Positions 2,606-6,567 of a stretch of DNA of 6,597 nucleotides are shown here, in pieces. The notes under the pieces are model-generated. The model saw only the letters and a program-made list of their open reading frames with translations, was not told the DNA's origin and made no database searches. This DNA is from a virus (Duplodnaviria > Heunggongvirae > Uroviricota > Caudoviricetes), in IMG/VR virus record IMGVR_UViG_2740892442_000003; one strand, given 5' to 3'. Each line of letters starts with the position of its first letter. Position 1 is the first letter of the stretch. Position numbers and translations under genes: made by a program.

Positions 2606-3231
2606 CCGTTGCCCTCATTATCGTTATTCACCACCAGTCGGGGGGGCGGTGGCACCGCAAAACGGTTAGCCGCTTTTTTCGCGGCATCACCTTTTGCCGA
2701 TTTTTTCCCGGTATCCCCTTTTTTATGGTGCGTGAACTGCGCCAGACGCCAGGCCGCATCCAGTGCCAGTTTCGGATCAATGCAGAGGTTTTCCACCAGG
2801 ATCCGCCCCATGGCTTTCACCGGATCGGGAAGACCATCCTCCATATATTCAATACCAGGAGACATCACCGCGGACGGTGGCATCTCCAGATTGTTTTCGT
2901 CCGGCTGTGGTATTGCAGCCGCCTCACGGCGACGGGGTTTATCCTCCTGCTCTGATTTTTTCTGCCGGTAAACAGGAACCTCATCCACCTCCACCGTCTC
3001 GCATTGTTTACGGGCTATAAACGCAAGCACCTCAGGATCTTTTGCCAGCTGCGAGCCTTTAACCCTGGCGGTCTTCGCCGAATAACCGGCGGCAATGGCT
3101 GACGCTGTTTTGTTTTTCCCGGACATGAGCGCCAGCGCAAATTTTCGTTTTTGCGTTGTCAGCACAGCCTCCTCCCGGGTCCAGAACGCACTCAGCCGGG
3201 TATGGTTCAGCCATTTTTCCCGGCGTCTCAT
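2602..3231 (-). CDS. Terminase small subunit (P27 / Terminase_2 type)
   Basis: 209-aa ORF; N-terminal LTTQKRKFALALMSGKNKTASAIAAGYSAKTARVKGSQLAKDPEV matches the helix-turn-helix region typical of P27-family small terminases. Sits directly upstream of, and coupled to, TerL. Confidence 0.8.
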   Translation of the reverse strand: MRRREKWLNHTRLSAFWTREEAVLTTQKRKFALALMSGKNKTASAIAAGYSAKTARVKGSQLAKDPEVLAFIARKQCETVEVDEVPVYRQKKSEQEDKPRRREAAAIPQPDENNLEMPPSAVMSPGIEYMEDGLPDPVKAMGRILVENLCIDPKLALDAAWRLAQFTHHKKGDTGKKSAKGDAAKKAANRFAVPPPPRLVVNNDNEGNG

Positions 3232-3238
3232 GCCGCAA

Positions 3239-3362
3239 ATGTTAACTGCTGCCTGGTTAACATTTGCTGAAAAAGCCTGTTAACATTTTTTCCGCACAAC
3301 AAACTGAATAATAAAGATAAAAACCGCAAAAATGCCCGGGCAGCCAGTTAACATGTTAACTG
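3239..3362. promoter_or_regulatory. Cluster of five GTTAAC-core 10-bp repeats (CAGTTAACAT / ATGTTAACTG), candidate cosB-like terminase binding sites
   Basis: GTTAAC at 3241, 3256, 3279, 3347 and 3355. 3239-3263 is an inverted repeat with a 9-bp spacer; 3345-3362 (CAGTTAACATGTTAACTG) is a perfect 18-bp palindrome. Lies between HNH and TerS, where the cos site sits in HK97-like phages. Confidence 0.4.
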
Positions 3363-3454: not shown

Positions 3455-3820
3455 TTACAGTCCGATGATGTCGTCCTCTCTGCCACTACCTCCGGACACC
3501 TCCGGCAGCGTCGGGTCCGGCATACCACTCGCCGCTTCACGAGCAGACTTTTGTCGATGGCATTCGGTACAGAGCGTCCAGAGATTCGTCTCCTCATTAC
3601 CACCACCGAACTGAAGTGCAATTCGGTGATCGAGTTCACTGTCACAGAGGTCAACCACACGACCACAGAGACGGCACTGCCCGGCGTCCCTGAGCCAGAT
3701 ATGACGCTTGAGGGAAACACGTGCACTGCCACTGACACGACGCTGTTCACCCTTCAGAATATTCACCCGTCGGGTATTCAGTGTTTTGATTCTGCTCTGG
3801 AGTGTACGAAGCTCAGCCAT
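3455..3820 (-). CDS. HNH endonuclease (terminase-associated)
   Basis: 121-aa ORF with Cys/His HNH motif CRLCGRVVD...ELDHRIALQFGGGNEETNLWTLCTECHRQK. GGGGA RBS 6 nt upstream of the ATG. Position upstream of TerS is typical of cos-packaging HK97-like phages. Confidence 0.85.
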   Translation of the reverse strand: MAELRTLQSRIKTLNTRRVNILKGEQRRVSGSARVSLKRHIWLRDAGQCRLCGRVVDLCDSELDHRIALQFGGGNEETNLWTLCTECHRQKSAREAASGMPDPTLPEVSGGSGREDDIIGL

Positions 3821-3861
3821 GTAAAATCCCCGTCATATGGCAATCAGTAAAGGAAATAAAT

Positions 3862-4260: not shown

Positions 4261-4485
4261 TCAACACACTGGCTGTAATGCAGCGGATACCATGCGGCAT
4301 TTAGCGGCATTCATCGTACACTCCACGGTTAGCTCTTCATTCGTGGCATTCACCTGAAAGGTCCGGGAGTGTAATTGCGTACATTTACCACTGAACGAAC
4401 CTTCAACAAGAACACGACCACGCTGCAAAATACGGAACGGAATTGTTCCCTGAAAAGGTTCTACGGTTACCCGTAATTTCTTCAT
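4261..4485 (-). CDS. Hypothetical 74-aa protein translationally coupled to Rz
   Basis: ATG overlaps the Rz stop as ATGA; GGAGGA RBS 3 nt upstream. Four Cys, no signal peptide or transmembrane segment. No family recognised. Confidence 0.5.
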
Positions 4486-4976
4486 GTATCCTCCGGATAA
4501 TAAAAAGCCAGCTTAGTGCACTGAGTGCGGATATATTCCTGCGCCCCTTCCAGCTGCTTCTGCATTGTCATCAACCGTTCTCTGAGGATGAAATAATCCC
4601 GTTCAGCGGTGTCTGCCAGTCGGGGGCCGGTTGCATTATCCACGCTGGAGGTGCCGGTGGCTTCACGCACGGTACCGGGGCAGGTGGCGTTGACCCGCAG
4701 GCGCTTACGACCAGCGGCAACATCAGCGCGCAGAGTTTCATTTTCAGCTCTCGCATCGGCTAATTCCTTCGTGTATCTGGCATCAAGCGCAGCGACATCT
4801 CGCTGGCGCTGCTGCATGTCAGTAATAGTGGCATTCGCCAGTTTCAGCTCACTGACTTTTTTATCGCGCTGCGCTTTGTAGGTGATGGCGTTATCGCGGT
4901 AATGATTCAGCCCCAGACTAAGCACACCACAGGCTACCAGCAGGACAATAATCACCACACACAGAACACGGTTCAT
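4482..4976 (-). CDS. Rz: Rz i-spanin (inner-membrane spanin subunit)
   Basis: 164 aa from ATG at 4976; N-terminal transmembrane segment [20 protein letters not shown] followed by [17 protein letters not shown]...[20 protein letters not shown], closely resembling lambda Rz. The track ORF's upstream GTG extension is rejected. Confidence 0.9.
4571..4756 (-). CDS. Rz1: Rz1 o-spanin lipoprotein, embedded in the +1 frame of Rz
   Basis: 61-aa ORF wholly inside Rz; lipobox LVVSAC then proline-rich [26 protein letters not shown], closely resembling lambda Rz1. Confidence 0.85.
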
Positions 4977-4977
4977 A

Positions 4978-5064
4978 TCACCACCAACGGATTGCCCAGA
5001 CCAGAACAGCAATGGCCACAATACGAATGGCAAATGCCATTGCCCGAATAAGTTCAGCACTCAT
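4978..5064 (-). CDS. Small hydrophobic peptide D (28 aa, single predicted transmembrane helix)
   Basis: [28 protein letters not shown]. Its TGA stop lies 1 nt before the Rz ATG. Paralogous to the core of peptide C. Confidence 0.4.
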
Positions 5065-5075
5065 CTTTTTAAAGT

Positions 5076-5198
5076 TCACGATTTCAGCGCAATGACCAGT
5101 TTTGCCAGCCCATACAGCATCGGAGACACAGCAATACCAACAGCCACCCACTTAATAGCAAAAGCCAGCGCTCTGCTGATGTCATCAGTCACTGTCAC
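5076..5198 (-). CDS. Small hydrophobic peptide C (about 40 aa, single predicted transmembrane helix)
   Basis: GTG start overlapping the stop of peptide B (GTGA); (M)TVTDDISRALAFAIKWVAVGIAVSPMLYGLAKLVIALKS. Start codon uncertain. Confidence 0.4.
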   Translation of the reverse strand: MTVTDDISRALAFAIKWVAVGIAVSPMLYGLAKLVIALKS

Positions 5199-5326
5199 CC
5201 CAGCAGCCCCGACGAAGACAACATCACCCAGGCGAGGGACAGAAAAAGAGCAACCAGCATTAGTGAAAATGAAATACCGACAATCACACACAGGACCTTT
5301 GCCGGCGTTATGAGTTTGTCTGACAT
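5195..5326 (-). CDS. Small hydrophobic peptide B (43 aa, single predicted transmembrane helix)
   Basis: ATG with AAGGGG RBS 5 nt upstream; MSDKLITPAKVLCVIVGISFSLMLVALFLSLAWVMLSSSGLLG. Starts 2 nt after the stop of peptide A. Confidence 0.45.
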   Translation of the reverse strand: MSDKLITPAKVLCVIVGISFSLMLVALFLSLAWVMLSSSGLLG

Positions 5327-5328
5327 AG

Positions 5329-5424
5329 CTACCCCTTAATTGCCACAATTAACTGGGATACTACCCATAAAAAAGGGATGCTCCAGACCAGCAAAAATTT
5401 CCAGTTTGGTAATTGACTAATCAT
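5329..5424 (-). CDS. Small hydrophobic peptide A (31 aa, single predicted transmembrane helix)
   Basis: ATG at 5424 with AGGGAG RBS 9 nt upstream; MISQLPNWKFLLVWSIPFLWVVSQLIVAIKG. The longer GTG-started track ORF (to 5541) would read through the terminator hairpin and is rejected. Confidence 0.4.
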   Translation of the reverse strand: MISQLPNWKFLLVWSIPFLWVVSQLIVAIKG

Positions 5425-5495
5425 GAGTCGCAACTCCCTAATCAGTTTGCTAAAATCAATCAAGGCAGCCTCCCATAGCTTACTGCCATAAAAAC

Positions 5496-5535
5496 AAAAC
5501 CCCGCTTGCTGCCAACAAACGGGGTTTTTACTTTT
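5496..5535 (-). terminator. Strong hairpin with U-tracts on both sides (intrinsic terminator, stronger in the minus orientation)
   Basis: Arms 5496-5508 and 5516-5528 form a 13-bp stem with a 7-nt loop. In the minus-strand RNA there is one G-U wobble and a UUUUGUUUUUAU tail; in the plus orientation one C-A mismatch and a UUUUUACUUUUAUU tail. Lies 90 nt downstream of the endolysin stop. Confidence 0.6.
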
Positions 5536-5618
5536 ATTCACTTACATTTTGCCAGTTCGCAGGATTTCGTGTTATCCATCCGCCTTGGCCAACGTCATTT
5601 ATTAGCAAAATATTCTGC

Positions 5619-6152
5619 TTATCTGTCGATTCCCCAGCACGCCAGCGCGCTCTCCTGGTCACGACGGGATACCTGACCGTAACAGTTATTTGAGCGAATA
5701 CGGCAGTCCCTGCCACCGTCCTTAATCCACCAGCGAATCGCCTCACACGCTCCCCTGCGATCACCTGCATTAATTCGTTTATAAAACGTCGACGGAAAAC
5801 ACTTACCGGGGCCAATGTTGTACGGACAGAATGACGCGATCCCCGCTTTCTGGGGTTCACTCAATGGCACTCTGATGTTTTTCTCCACCCATGCCAGCGC
5901 CTTATCACGCTCAATGGCGTTAACCCGGTCGCATTTTTCCTTCGACAACTTCATGCCAGGAACGACAGGTTTGCCATCCACCAGGATGGCACCGCGGCAG
6001 ATGGTCCAGATACCCGCGCCATCACGGTATGCCGTGGTGTGGTTACCTTCCTTTTCATCCAGAAACTGGTCGAGAATGTCAGGCGCAGGCGCACCAGCGG
6101 CAATCAGCGCCAGAACGGCAGCCGACAGGCCGTATTTGATTTTGGTGTTCAT
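5619..6152 (-). CDS. R: SAR endolysin (phage lysozyme, T4-lysozyme-like glycoside hydrolase with N-terminal signal-anchor-release domain)
   Basis: 177-aa ORF. Weakly hydrophobic Gly/Ala-rich N-terminus YGLSAAVLALIAAGAPAP, then catalytic E-x8-D-x5-T in EGNHTTAYRDGAGIWT. Resembles lysozymes of lambdoid prophages (recalled, not searched). Confidence 0.9.
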   Translation of the reverse strand: MNTKIKYGLSAAVLALIAAGAPAPDILDQFLDEKEGNHTTAYRDGAGIWTICRGAILVDGKPVVPGMKLSKEKCDRVNAIERDKALAWVEKNIRVPLSEPQKAGIASFCPYNIGPGKCFPSTFYKRINAGDRRGACEAIRWWIKDGGRDCRIRSNNCYGQVSRRDQESALACWGIDR

Positions 6153-6215
6153 GGATATTTATCAGGATTTATCGGTTTCTGCCCACGGACAGGTTTATCT
6201 GTTCCGGTCAGTGAC

Positions 6216-6567
6216 TTAAGGTTGTGATTCCGGAGGAGTCTTCAGAGAACCAGTAATTATTCCCGGTAGCTTTCCTTTGTAGGTTATCCATACATTCTGC
6301 GCCTCTAAAATTACGGGGCGCTTTTCCGGCGACTGCTCATCCCCTTCACATAACCCGGCAGCAACATCCAGGAAGACCTGTCTGATGCTCCTTCTGGCTG
6401 CTGCCTCATAAAACTCCAGCGTGGCACCTTCAACACGGTCCAGCGAGATGTCCAGGTCAAAAATTTCACCGTCAAAGCGTTTTTTTGTCCCGTAACGCTA
6501 AAGTTACCGTAACTTTATTCTCAAAATTGCGGATCCCTTTCACAATCAGTTCATAGTTTTGAGTCAT
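6216..6567 (-). pseudogene. Small conserved-looking ORF upstream of endolysin, split by a +1 frameshift in an A7 run (possibly ydfR-like; tentative)
   Basis: ATG at 6567 with GGGGAGAG RBS gives MTQNYELIVKGIRNFENKVTVTLALRDKKTL then stop. The +1 frame continues from the A7 tract (T7 on plus strand, 6480-6486) as RFDGEIFDLDISLDRVEGATLEFYEAAARRSIRQVFLDVAAGLCEGDEQSPEKRPVILEAQNVWITYKGKLPGIITGSLKTPPESQP with no start codon of its own. Confidence 0.5.

What the first reader, a model, noticed from the sequence alone, without database searches (positions are those of the whole stretch)
4978..5424. Four tandem small single-transmembrane peptide genes inserted between endolysin and the Rz/Rz1 spanins
Canonical lambdoid lysis cassettes run S-R-Rz/Rz1 with no gap. 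Here about 640 bp lie between R and Rz, holding four back-to-back ORFs of 31, 43, about 40 and 28 aa, each essentially one hydrophobic helix. They are packed like an operon: stop of A is 2 nt before the ATG of B, B and C overlap as GTGA, and the stop of D is 1 nt before the Rz ATG. Peptides C and D are clear paralogues (RALAFAIKWVAVGIAV versus [16 protein letters not shown]) whose nucleotide differences are often at third codon positions (GCG/GCA, GCT/GCC, GTG/GTC), which argues for real coding sequence. A and C share a C-terminal L-[IV]-[VI]-A-[IL]-K-[GS] motif. Candidate roles are holin/antiholin-like lysis-timing factors, or prophage-encoded membrane toxins or superinfection-exclusion peptides riding on the late transcript. 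I do not recognise the family.
Basis: partly seen in the sequence, partly recalled or inferred. Interest (0 to 1): 0.8.

Follow-up and report, generated by a model that had tools for sequence, protein, structure and literature searches.

The report
Small membrane-peptide genes in prophage lysis cassette
Four tiny genes for single-helix membrane peptides really do sit between the cell-wall enzyme and the outer-membrane-breaking genes of this E. coli prophage; they are conserved, shuffled like building blocks among related phages (including Shiga-toxin phages), mostly unannotated, and nobody knows what they do.

Summary
On the minus strand, between the SAR-type lysozyme R (6152-5619) and Rz/Rz1 (4976-4482), lie an intrinsic terminator (5528-5496) and four packed ORFs. 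Each encodes essentially one hydrophobic helix. All four frames are under purifying selection in diverged homologues (dN/dS 0.07-0.4).

Corrections:
- ORF A belongs to a conserved 45-aa family and most likely starts at TTG 5463 (44 aa), not ATG 5424.
- C and D are true paralogues, but here they are N-terminally shortened versions of 48-60 aa and 37-50 aa proteins.
- This is not a one-off insertion. The endolysin-spanin junction is a hypervariable cargo slot: 1862 of 5426 complete E. coli genomes carry at least one of these genes and 589 carry the whole block, in many orders and combinations, some with an antirepressor gene.

B and C also follow unrelated endolysins. Family A also occurs in tail and baseplate operons, always behind a terminator hairpin plus a conserved leader.

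No Pfam, NCBIfam or PADLOC family matches. PHROGs lists all four as unknown function, and I found no paper on them.

Most likely they are late-transcribed accessory inner-membrane peptides that modulate the membrane step of lysis (about 0.4). Moron-like exclusion or host-modulating peptides are a close rival (about 0.3).

The parts
5619..6152 (-). Endolysin R. It is a 177-aa lysozyme with an N-terminal signal-anchor-release-type hydrophobic segment (MNTKIKYGLSAAVLALIAAG...).
   Evidence: ORF list. PGAP calls it 'lysozyme'/rrrQ in identical loci. It is 88% identical to K-12 RrrQ, which has no small ORFs downstream.
5529..5618 (-). Conserved non-coding 3' region of R. Its end (GTGAATAAAAGT) is the left boundary of the variable slot.
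   Evidence: The same sequence precedes different cargo in H-19B, PhiR5_1, PPyecE, L011 and Salmonella SPN3UB.
5486..5528 (-). Intrinsic terminator hairpin (AAAACCCCG...CGGGGTTTT) plus U-tract. The symmetric A/T flanks suggest it may work in both directions.
   Evidence: The terminator scan found 15 pairs. The RNA fold has z = -3.6. The hairpin is kept, with compensatory stem changes, in 12 loci from 6 genera.
5329..5463 (-). ORF A. It is 44 aa from TTG 5463, or 31 aa from ATG 5424. The model is an N-terminal amphipathic helix followed by one transmembrane helix. It belongs to the 45-aa family phrog_6632, as the variant with the C-terminus ..LIVAIKG.
   Evidence: phrog_6632, E = 1e-12. 76 homologues, many exactly 45 aa. 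dN/dS is 0.15 for the TM part and 0.06-0.25 across the family. AlphaFold2 gives helices 4-17 and 20-43 at pLDDT 80.
5195..5326 (-). ORF B. It is 43 aa with one strongly hydrophobic helix (phrog_4906).
   Evidence: phrog_4906, E = 4.5e-21. 229 homologues. dN/dS is mostly 0.1-0.4 at dS up to 1.8, and the annotated frame has the highest synonymous fraction and no stops. It is present in 276 phage records, mostly unannotated.
5076..5198 (-). ORF C. It is 40 aa from GTG 5198, or 38 aa from GTG 5192. It is the transmembrane core of the C/D family (phrog_1115). It lacks the 22-residue basic N-terminus of the 60-aa form.
   Evidence: phrog_1115, E = 6e-25, matching profile positions 30-67 of 67. 48-aa and 60-aa homologues exist. 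dN/dS is 0.07-0.09 against Salmonella at dS about 1.4.
4978..5064 (-). ORF D. It is 28 aa and a paralogue of C, ending in IRWW. Its stop lies 1 nt before the Rz ATG. It is a short form of a 37-50 aa protein.
   Evidence: phrog_4493, E = 4e-6. The long form in L015 aligns with long C at E = 4e-14. dN/dS is 0.17-0.30.
4482..4976 (-). Rz, the i-spanin (164 aa).
   Evidence: ORF list. PGAP calls it 'lysis protein'. Homologues carry PF03245 Phage_lysis.
4571..4756 (-). Rz1, the o-spanin lipoprotein, embedded in Rz in another frame. It has the lipobox LVVSAC and a proline-rich mature part.
   Evidence: ORF list translation [30 protein letters not shown]....

Best explanation
What it is (confidence about 0.9). 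These are four genuine genes for very small single-pass inner-membrane peptides. They belong to three uncharacterised phage families: A (phrog_6632), B (phrog_4906) and C/D (phrog_1115 and phrog_4493). They occupy a recombination-prone cargo slot between the endolysin and the spanin genes of a lambdoid E. coli prophage. The block in this window looks like a join of two smaller arrangements seen elsewhere: A-B, and C-D.

How it most likely works (inferred, confidence about 0.4).
1. There is no detectable promoter of their own. A strong terminator lies directly upstream, and the ORFs are tightly coupled to one another and to Rz.
2. So the peptides would be made only from the Q-antiterminated late transcript, together with holin, endolysin and spanins.
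3. They would insert into the inner membrane.
4. Through helix-helix contacts they would tune the membrane step of lysis. That could mean holin triggering, proton-motive-force collapse, release of the membrane-tethered endolysin, or behaviour of the spanin anchor.
5. They would act as dispensable, exchangeable accessory factors, not core lysis proteins.

Shown: the coding status, selection, membrane-helix character, position, coupling, terminator and modular distribution. Inferred: the timing of expression, the membrane insertion, and any effect on lysis.
For: Real genes:
- The annotated frame has the highest synonymous fraction (0.43-0.57) and no stops in all four families. The other five frames reach at most 0.37, and four of those five carry stops in every family.
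- dN/dS is 0.07-0.4 at dS up to about 1.9.
- Four hydrophobic ORFs by chance: 0 of 2000 shuffles.
- PHROG matches.
- Only 1 frameshift among 146 copies of the block.

Late-operon, lysis-linked:
- The stop/start spacing is 2 nt, then a 4-nt overlap, then 11 nt, then 1 nt to Rz.
- There is a terminator upstream, and no sigma-70-like site on the coding strand.
- B and C lie between endolysin and spanin (or a lipoprotein) in three unrelated cassette types. These are S21-type holin with SAR lysozyme, Holin_2_3 with Phage_lysozyme in Salmonella, and Holin_8 plus Holin_3_7 with GH108 in E. coli and Cronobacter.
- Family A lies between a GH19 endolysin and overlapped i/o-spanin-like genes in Enterobacter, and between lysozyme and Rz in Salmonella phage SPN3UB.
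- B sits directly upstream of Rz in the 933W-like Stx2 phage Min27 that I inspected. It is present in 276 phage records, most of them Stx phages, whose neighbours I did not check.

Dispensable and modular:
- K-12 RrrQ is 88% identical to this R, yet it overlaps its Rz.
- Subsets and permutations are seen: A-B, C-B, ant-B, D alone, and C'-x-D.

Precedent: small bitopic membrane proteins encoded next to a SAR endolysin can control its release, as the Mu gp25 releasin does (PMC9239132).
Against: - There is no experimental or expression data of any kind.
- Family A is not confined to lysis cassettes. One subfamily sits between the baseplate spike and sheath-initiator genes in E. coli, Salmonella and Klebsiella prophages and in phage SEN34. 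It also sits before the gpJ tail-tip gene in Citrobacter and among tail genes of a Pseudomonas phage.
- The slot also accepts clearly unrelated cargo (antirepressor genes). Position alone is therefore weak evidence.
- The association is not specific to any holin, endolysin or spanin type. That argues against a specific partner.
- None of the peptides has the charged C-terminal tail typical of holins.
- C and D here lack the basic N-terminus of their longer relatives and could be impaired.
- Lambda, phage 21-type K-12 prophages and many other phages lyse without them.
Confidence: 0.4

Rival explanations
1. Moron-like cargo unrelated to lysis. The peptides are accessory inner-membrane proteins that protect or modify the cell. 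They might block DNA entry by superinfecting phages, as HK97 gp15 does, or modulate a host membrane protein. The endolysin-spanin junction is then simply a tolerated insertion site in the late operon.
For: - The content of the slot is hypervariable, mosaic and stackable, as in accessory hotspots.
- The same slot carries antirepressor genes.
- Family A also sits next to baseplate-spike and tail-tip genes, the proteins that breach the envelope. HK97 gene 15 sits in a tail operon in the same way (PMC3594210).
- GC content of the block is 0.46 (A alone 0.385), against 0.55 and 0.54 for R and Rz.
- One slot variant (L011) has TTGACA and TATAAT hexamers upstream of a further small membrane ORF.
Against: - Morons are defined as having their own promoter and terminator, so that they are expressed from repressed prophages. 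Here no sigma-70-like promoter is found on the coding strand. The terminator is upstream, not downstream. The last ORF is coupled to Rz.
- The L011 hexamers are only 13 nt apart.
- PADLOC has no match.
- B, C and D were seen only in lysis cassettes.
- Low GC is expected for helix-coding, T-rich sequence.
Confidence: 0.3
2. Partly decaying passengers. The families are real, but in this particular block some copies are non-functional leftovers of recombination that are carried along neutrally. This applies above all to the N-terminally shortened C and D.
For: - C starts exactly at a recombination joint that removes the 22 N-terminal codons and the native leader and Shine-Dalgarno of the 60-aa form.
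- D lacks the MxKYKRxxLRL N-terminus of its long form.
- Truncated A copies exist: L008, Cronobacter L016, and a frameshift in L090.
- PGAP often skips A.
- The four-gene block is nearly clonal (580 records at 99% identity or more). Its own conservation therefore says little.
Against: - All four frames are intact in 145 of 146 copies.
- The 28-aa form of D recurs in a diverged context (L011) with dN/dS 0.28.
- A 31-aa TM-only form of A exists in PhiR5_1.
- The GTGA overlap and the 1-nt spacing to Rz are typical of translational coupling.
Confidence: 0.12
3. Toxic membrane peptides of the type I toxin kind (like Hok, Ldr or TisB), kept silent by the upstream terminator and perhaps by an antisense RNA. 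They would kill or depolarise the cell when expressed.
For: - Size and hydrophobicity fit such toxins.
- A promoter-like site on the opposite strand (5320-5349, CTGACA-18-CACAAT) would drive an RNA antisense to ORF A, running into the symmetric terminator.
- Every family A cassette is insulated by a terminator.
Against: - One promoter-like hit is fewer than the 1.9 expected by chance.
- That site is not conserved at the C-B junction inspected in O157:H7 L010; the comparison was made by eye on the junction sequence (locus).
- The genes form a coupled operon with Rz, not a stand-alone toxin locus.
- There is no Rfam match.
Confidence: 0.06
4. Upstream ORFs whose main role is translational. They would deliver ribosomes to, or set the translation level of, Rz/Rz1, and the peptide products would be unimportant.
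For: - The D stop lies 1 nt before the Rz ATG.
- B homologues end 7-11 nt before Rz.
- The last codons of D (CGT TGG TGG TGA) look like a Shine-Dalgarno for Rz.
Against: - Amino-acid sequences are conserved while synonymous sites are saturated.
- The IRWW ending is also conserved in family A members in tail operons, where no Rz follows.
- K-12 Rz genes are translated without them.
Confidence: 0.05

Closest known systems
Mu gp25 'releasin' (DUF2730), a membrane-tethered protein needed to release the SAR endolysin (PMC9239132)
   Same: It is a small bitopic inner-membrane protein, expressed late, encoded a few genes from a SAR endolysin and the spanins. It is not itself a holin. Its relatives also occur with non-SAR endolysins.
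   Different: gp25 is 99 aa, oriented N-out/C-in, with a 73-aa acidic cytoplasmic domain. The peptides here are 28-45 aa with almost nothing outside the membrane except the 20-residue N-terminal helix of A. There is no sequence similarity: no Pfam hit at E up to 1-5. Family A also occurs outside lysis clusters.
Holins, pinholins and antiholins (phage 21 S68/S71, lambda S105/S107, P1 LydB, P2 LysA, T4 RI)
   Same: They are small membrane proteins in lysis cassettes that set lysis timing through interactions between transmembrane helices. They are late-transcribed and potentially toxic.
   Different: The real holin of this cassette (a 71-aa class II holin) lies upstream of R. The peptides here are shorter than any characterised holin, have one helix, and lack a charged C-terminal tail. 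No holin family matches them.
Moron-encoded small inner-membrane exclusion proteins (HK97 gp15; also P22 SieA, T4 Imm) (PMC3594210)
   Same: They are horizontally shuffled extra genes inside late operons, including tail operons as for family A. The products are small inner-membrane proteins. Presence is variable between close relatives.
   Different: Morons have their own promoter and a downstream terminator, and are expressed in lysogens. Here the terminator is upstream, no promoter is detectable, and the ORFs are coupled to Rz. There is no homology to gp15/YebO.
Type I toxins and other bacterial peptides of 50 aa or fewer that sit in the membrane (Hok, Ldr, TisB; regulators such as AcrZ, MgrB, SgrT)
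   Same: The size, the single hydrophobic helix and the poor annotation are shared.
   Different: There is no dedicated antisense RNA or stand-alone locus. These are phage late-operon genes in tandem.

Membership tests
PHROG families 6632 (A), 4906 (B), 1115/3246/4493 (C, D), all 'unknown function' | Significant match to the family profile HMM. | tested here: met
   A (70-aa call) E = 1.3e-12. B E = 4.5e-21. C E = 6.4e-25. D E = 3.8e-6.
Holin | At least one transmembrane helix, and encoded next to the endolysin. | tested here: met
   One hydrophobic helix in each peptide. The position is directly downstream of R.
Holin | Hydrophilic, highly charged C-terminal domain. | tested here: not met
   The residues after the best 19-residue hydrophobic window are KG, SLAWVMLSSSGLLG, ALKS and AIRWW. 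Net charge is 0 to +1.
Holin | Match to a known holin family model. | tested here: not met
   No Pfam or NCBIfam hit. The cassette's annotated class II holin is a separate gene upstream.
Holin | Lethal, energy-poison-triggerable hole formation that releases or activates the endolysin. | not testable with these tools
   This needs expression and lysis assays.
Releasin (Mu gp25, DUF2730) | DUF2730 domain: an N-terminal TMD (N-out) plus a cytoplasmic domain of about 70 aa. | tested here: not met
   No Pfam hit. The peptides are 28-45 aa with no such domain.
Moron | Extra DNA present in some relatives and absent in others, with deviating GC content. | tested here: met
   Absent in K-12 Qin and DLP12. 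Variable content in other genomes. GC 0.46 against 0.54-0.55 for the flanks.
Moron | Own promoter upstream and terminator downstream, allowing expression from the repressed prophage. | tested here: not met
   No sigma-70-like site on the coding strand. The only strong terminator is upstream of A. D abuts Rz. The promoter scan is a simple consensus search, so a weak or non-sigma-70 promoter is not excluded.
Type I toxin-antitoxin | Cis-encoded antisense RNA with its own promoter overlapping the toxin mRNA. | tested here: inconclusive
   There is one opposite-strand promoter-like site at 5320-5349, which is within chance expectation. By eye it has no counterpart at the C-B junction of L010 (locus). 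There is no Rfam family.
Known anti-phage defence proteins (PADLOC) | Match to a PADLOC model. | tested here: not met
   No hits for 8 peptides at E up to 1.
Spanin (i-, o- or u-spanin) | A periplasmic domain long enough to span the periplasm, or a lipobox. | tested here: not met
   There is no lipobox, and the extramembrane tails are at most about 14 residues. Rz and Rz1 are separate genes downstream. BLASTP of B against Rz finds no alignment.

The most novel reading that the evidence does not exclude
These peptides, and above all the 45-aa family A ([MV]IDFSKLIRELRxMxEKLPNWKF-TM-IRWW), are an overlooked class of phage late proteins. They are carried on 'terminator-first' mini-cassettes (hairpin, conserved leader, small membrane ORF) that hop between late-operon sites in phages of Enterobacteriaceae and Pseudomonas. 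They would act as a new kind of regulator of the envelope events at the end of infection, for example by tuning holin triggering, SAR-endolysin release or spanin action. Stx phages such as H-19B and the 933W type would then have an unrecognised extra lysis component that affects the timing of toxin release.
Probability: 0.2. Interest if true: 0.7.

Novelty: new member of a known kind. Interest (0 to 1): 0.45.

Why it matters
If these peptides affect lysis timing, they bear on burst size and on the timing of Shiga-toxin release. Homologues of A or B sit, mostly unannotated, in the lysis cassettes of hundreds of Stx phages. If instead they are exclusion or host-modulating peptides, the endolysin-spanin junction is a previously undescribed accessory hotspot in lambdoid prophages.

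Either way the work gives:
- corrected gene models;
- three defined families with clear consensus sequences;
- a simple set of deletion and expression experiments.

The repeated 'terminator plus leader plus mini-ORF' architecture is an unexplained feature that could also say something about how small genes move between phage operons.

Tried and rejected
- Pfam, NCBIfam and PADLOC scans of all peptide versions found nothing. The only lines were an 11.6-bit 'MFS small subunit' hit and a 13-bit mucin TM hit, both far below their cut-offs.
- Rfam on the whole window gave only a chance snoRNA-like hit.
- Literature searches used lysis-cassette phrases, SAR endolysin / pinholin / Stx terms, six RefSeq protein accessions, and EHEC ribosome-profiling papers. 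I also searched the supplements of PMC5597208 for the peptide sequences. No study of these genes turned up.
- The genome-contig scan for family B returned one 328-bp contig, probably contamination.
- The IMG/VR scans returned only near-identical copies. They were useful for polymorphism but not for diversity.
- I considered whether B derives from the Rz N-terminal helix, since both contain [KR]VLCV. BLASTP finds no alignment, so I dropped this.
- I considered whether the 38-aa ORF that follows the A homologue in a Pseudomonas phage is a B homologue. hhalign gives probability 0.1, so I dropped this.
- I considered whether the region is one degraded larger gene. I rejected this: each unit recurs alone or in other orders, with its own start and stop.
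- I considered whether the hydrophobic ORFs are a shadow of opposite-strand coding. I rejected this: the synonymous fraction is highest in the annotated frames.
- A sigma-70 promoter between the hairpin and the ORF start was not found by the scan or by eye.
Full report
**Source and layout.** The window is an E. coli lambdoid prophage. Positions 4400-6300 are 100% identical to strain TUM10008 and 98.5% identical to EPEC E2348/69. All relevant genes are on the minus strand. Their order is:
- a frameshifted YdfR/DUF1327 gene;
- lysozyme R (6152-5619);
- a 642-nt interval;
- Rz (4976-4482) with Rz1 embedded;
- a 74-aa ORF;
- an HNH endonuclease;
- the small and large terminase subunits.

The class II holin of the cassette lies just upstream of the window.

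**Check of the observation.**
- A: ATG 5424 to stop 5329.
- B: 5326-5195.
- C: GTG 5198 to 5076, overlapping the B stop as GTGA.
- D: 5064-4978, with its stop 1 nt before the Rz ATG.

Each contains a 19-residue window with mean hydropathy 1.9-2.9. Four such ORFs on one strand never arose in 2000 shuffles of the block.

**Are they genes?** Yes. I collected diverged homologues from other E. coli prophages, Salmonella, Cronobacter, Enterobacter, Klebsiella and Citrobacter.

Pairwise dN/dS:

| Family | dN/dS | Note |
|---|---|---|
| C | 0.07-0.09 | against Salmonella, dS about 1.4 |
| B | mostly 0.1-0.4 | dS up to 1.8 |
| D | 0.17-0.30 | |
| A, transmembrane part | 0.15 | |
| A, 45-aa family across genera | 0.06-0.25 | |

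- In all four families the annotated frame has the highest fraction of synonymous codon differences (0.43-0.57, against at most 0.37 in any other frame) and no stop codons.
- All four match PHROG families, every one labelled unknown function: A phrog_6632, B phrog_4906, C phrog_1115/3246/4493, D phrog_4493/3246.
- RefSeq annotates B, C and D, and sometimes a 70-aa version of A, as 'hypothetical protein'.
- Among 146 copies of the whole block in IMG/VR there are 18 haplotypes and one frameshift, which falls in A.

**Corrected gene models.**
- *Family A.* This is a well-defined 45-aa family with consensus [MV]IDFSKLIRELRxMxEKLPNWKFLLIW...G..IRWW. The window copy most likely starts at TTG 5463, with GGGAGG 5 nt upstream, giving 44 aa. 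AlphaFold2 on the family alignment gives an N-terminal helix (4-17), a break at Leu-Pro, and a second helix (20-43), with mean pLDDT 80. The window copy carries a variant C-terminus (..QLIVAIKG). H-19B and many Stx phages carry the IRWW form as the only ORF in the slot.
Their full-length relatives are longer: C is 48 or 60 aa (MGKYKRILLRLTMKNGLELKAP-VTDD...), and D is 37-50 aa. The long forms align over 44 residues, including the basic N-terminus (48% identity, E = 4e-14).
- In this window C begins exactly at a recombination joint that removes those 22 codons. D likewise lacks them.
- The block looks like a fusion of an A-B arrangement (seen alone in L008) and a C-D arrangement (seen in L011).

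**Distribution and modularity.**
- Of 5426 complete E. coli genomes, 4991 match the R/Rz region.
- 1862 match at least part of the 493-nt block. 589 carry at least 80% of it, nearly all at 99% identity or more.
- Other genomes carry subsets and permutations:
  - truncated A with B;
  - C then B (O157:H7);
  - antirepressor then B (933W/Min27-type Stx2 phages, where B is unannotated);
  - long D alone;
  - a further 50-aa TM ORF, a C variant, a further 49-aa TM ORF, then D;
  - family A alone.
- K-12 Qin and DLP12 have R overlapping Rz with nothing between them, although RrrQ is 88% identical to this R.
- B occurs in 276 phage records, family A in 49 and C in 14, mostly without annotation.
- The families are narrow. 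An exhaustive profile search of 1.84 billion representatives found only 50 clusters for family A. B and C/D are confined to Escherichia, Shigella, Salmonella, Citrobacter and Cronobacter.

**Context beyond this cassette type.** B and C are not tied to the S21/SAR-endolysin system:
- C lies between a Holin_2_3 + Phage_lysozyme pair and Rz in Salmonella.
- C-B, or an A remnant with B, follows a Holin_8 + Holin_3_7 + GH108 endolysin and precedes a 60-aa lipoprotein in E. coli WY517-2 and Cronobacter.
- Family A lies between a GH19 endolysin and overlapped spanin-like genes in Enterobacter, and between lysozyme and Rz in Salmonella phage SPN3UB.

One family A subfamily, however, sits in tail modules:
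- between the baseplate spike and sheath-initiator/Baseplate_J genes in E. coli, Salmonella and Klebsiella prophages and in phage SEN34;
- before the gpJ tail-tip gene in Citrobacter;
- among tail genes of Pseudomonas phage YMC11/02/R656 (50% identity).

**The terminator-first cassette.**
- In all 12 family A and long-C loci examined, from six genera and in both lysis and tail contexts, the ORF start lies 35-40 nt downstream of a GC-rich hairpin with a U-tract. A conserved leader follows (..CTGTTTCTnCACCTTGAGnAAGGCAAGGGAGAACATGTG).
- The hairpin keeps its pairing through compensatory changes. For example, one pair is AU in 6 sequences, GC in 4 and CG in 2.
- RNAalifold also predicts a small leader hairpin that includes part of the Shine-Dalgarno.
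- The antirepressor-type cargo also begins with its own terminator, after the same conserved R 3' boundary.
- I found no sigma-70 promoter between the hairpin and the start (and inspection).
- I cannot explain this architecture. It may insulate a harmful late gene from transcription that is not antiterminated. It may be a recombination hotspot. It may be an RNA stability or translation element.

**Mechanism.** What is shown is anatomy and selection. What follows is inference.

The peptides lack a detectable promoter. They sit behind a terminator that only antiterminated late transcription should pass. They are coupled to each other and to Rz. So they should be made late, together with the lysis proteins, and should insert into the inner membrane.

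B, C and D were seen only between endolysin and spanin genes, across three unrelated cassette types. My best reading is therefore that they are exchangeable accessory factors acting on the membrane step of lysis (confidence about 0.4). The Mu releasin is a precedent for a non-holin bitopic protein that controls a SAR endolysin (PMC9239132).

The main rival (about 0.3) is moron-like cargo with an exclusion or host-modulating role, as for HK97 gp15 (PMC3594210).
- For it: the tail-operon copies of family A, the antirepressor cargo in the same slot, and the lower GC of the block (0.46 against 0.55).
- Against it: there is no promoter and no downstream terminator.

Smaller rivals are:
- partial decay of the shortened C and D;
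- type I-toxin-like peptides, for which the only evidence is one chance-level antisense promoter-like site at 5320-5349;
- a purely translational role for Rz.

**Comparison with what is known.** None of the peptides is a member of a characterised family:
- no Pfam, NCBIfam or PADLOC match;
- no holin-type charged C-terminus;
- no DUF2730 domain;
- no lipobox and no long periplasmic domain;
- no moron-type promoter and terminator.

They resemble holins and antiholins, the releasin, and moron-encoded membrane proteins only in being small phage membrane proteins in late operons. I found no paper that mentions them. A survey of Stx-phage lysis cassettes (PMC8136144) describes S, R and Rz/Rz1 and antirepressor families, but not these ORFs.

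**Verdict.** This is a real, conserved and widespread but functionally unknown set of mini-membrane-protein genes. The claim of an unusual insertion is softened, because the slot is commonly occupied. The functional interpretation remains open. Interest is moderate. Small hypothetical membrane ORFs are common in phages. But the position inside Stx-phage lysis cassettes, the strong selection on a 45-aa family, and the unexplained terminator-first cassette make this a cheap and well-defined experimental target.

Noticed in passing
window 5486-5545 (minus strand), and loci L005, L010, L014, L184, L187-L192, L195: Every family A gene and every long C/D-family gene is preceded by an intrinsic terminator hairpin plus a conserved leader of about 35 nt. 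This holds whether the cassette follows an endolysin, follows a baseplate spike gene, or precedes a gpJ tail-tip gene, in six genera. The stems covary. A second small hairpin may cover part of the Shine-Dalgarno. I have no explanation.
   Followed up: partly
window 5529-5618 (minus strand): The non-coding 3' region of R is conserved between E. coli phages and Salmonella phage SPN3UB, including GGCGGATAACAC(G/A)AAATC. It ends at GTGAATAAA(A)GT, which is the left junction of all slot variants. It could be a 3'UTR-derived RNA or a recombination boundary.
   Followed up: no
window about 6217-6567 (minus strand): The YdfR/DUF1327 gene between holin and endolysin is frameshifted here. PGAP marks it as a pseudogene in the identical TUM10008 locus. 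It is intact in E2348/69. It is itself an extra gene inside the lysis cassette, of unknown function.
   Followed up: partly
L016-L018 (Cronobacter prophages), positions 741-1859: Genes for a heat-labile-enterotoxin-type A subunit (PF01375) and an LT-IIB B subunit (PF06453) lie directly upstream of the holin / GH108 endolysin cassette. That cassette carries an A remnant, B and a 60-aa lipoprotein. The toxin-before-lysis arrangement recalls stx in Stx phages.
   Followed up: no
L011 (E. coli O169:H41), positions 1014-1166 and 1331-1480: Two more unrelated small single-helix ORFs (50 aa MQVKDNNK..., 49 aa MIKAETTS...) occupy the same slot. The first has perfect TTGACA and TATAAT hexamers upstream, but they are only 13 nt apart.
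   Followed up: no
L014 positions 1474-1656; L016 positions 3640-3822: In the GH108-type cassettes no Rz-like gene is annotated. B is instead followed by a 60-aa lipoprotein (lipobox LVGC; mature part about 30 aa with 3 Cys) whose role is unclear. It is the size of a colicin-lysis protein and is not proline-rich like Rz1.
   Followed up: no
L019 positions 3208-3312; L188 about 2250-2340: In Salmonella cassettes, a short hydrophobic ORF ending ..GWGW(F/L)(L/I)..G(L/I)I(V/I)(M/L) begins at or just after the lysozyme stop. It is similar in two phages. It may be another mini-membrane gene, or chance.
   Followed up: no
window 5320-5349 (plus strand): A promoter-like site (CTGACA-18-CACAAT, with TG) lies antisense to the A/B junction. 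A transcript from it would cover ORF A and run into the symmetric terminator. This is within chance expectation, and by eye it is not conserved at the C-B junction of L010.
   Followed up: partly
window 4261-4485 (minus strand): A 74-aa ORF overlaps the Rz stop. It matches only positions 100-172 of the 291-position phrog_2571, so it may be a fragment of a larger gene. PGAP annotates it as a hypothetical protein.
   Followed up: no
window 5084-5185 (minus strand, alternative frame inside C): A 33-aa hydrophobic ORF (MTSAERWLLLLSGW...) overlaps C in another frame and recurs in homologous loci. Substitution patterns favour the C frame, and the ORF is cut short by a stop in L014. It is probably a shadow of C.
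   Followed up: partly
L196 (phage Min27), positions 1786-1929; H-19B L004, positions 2325-2459: Reference Stx phage records leave the B homologue (between ant and Rz) and the family A gene (between R and Rz) unannotated. The deposited H-19B Rz CDS also runs past the usual stop codon.
   Followed up: partly
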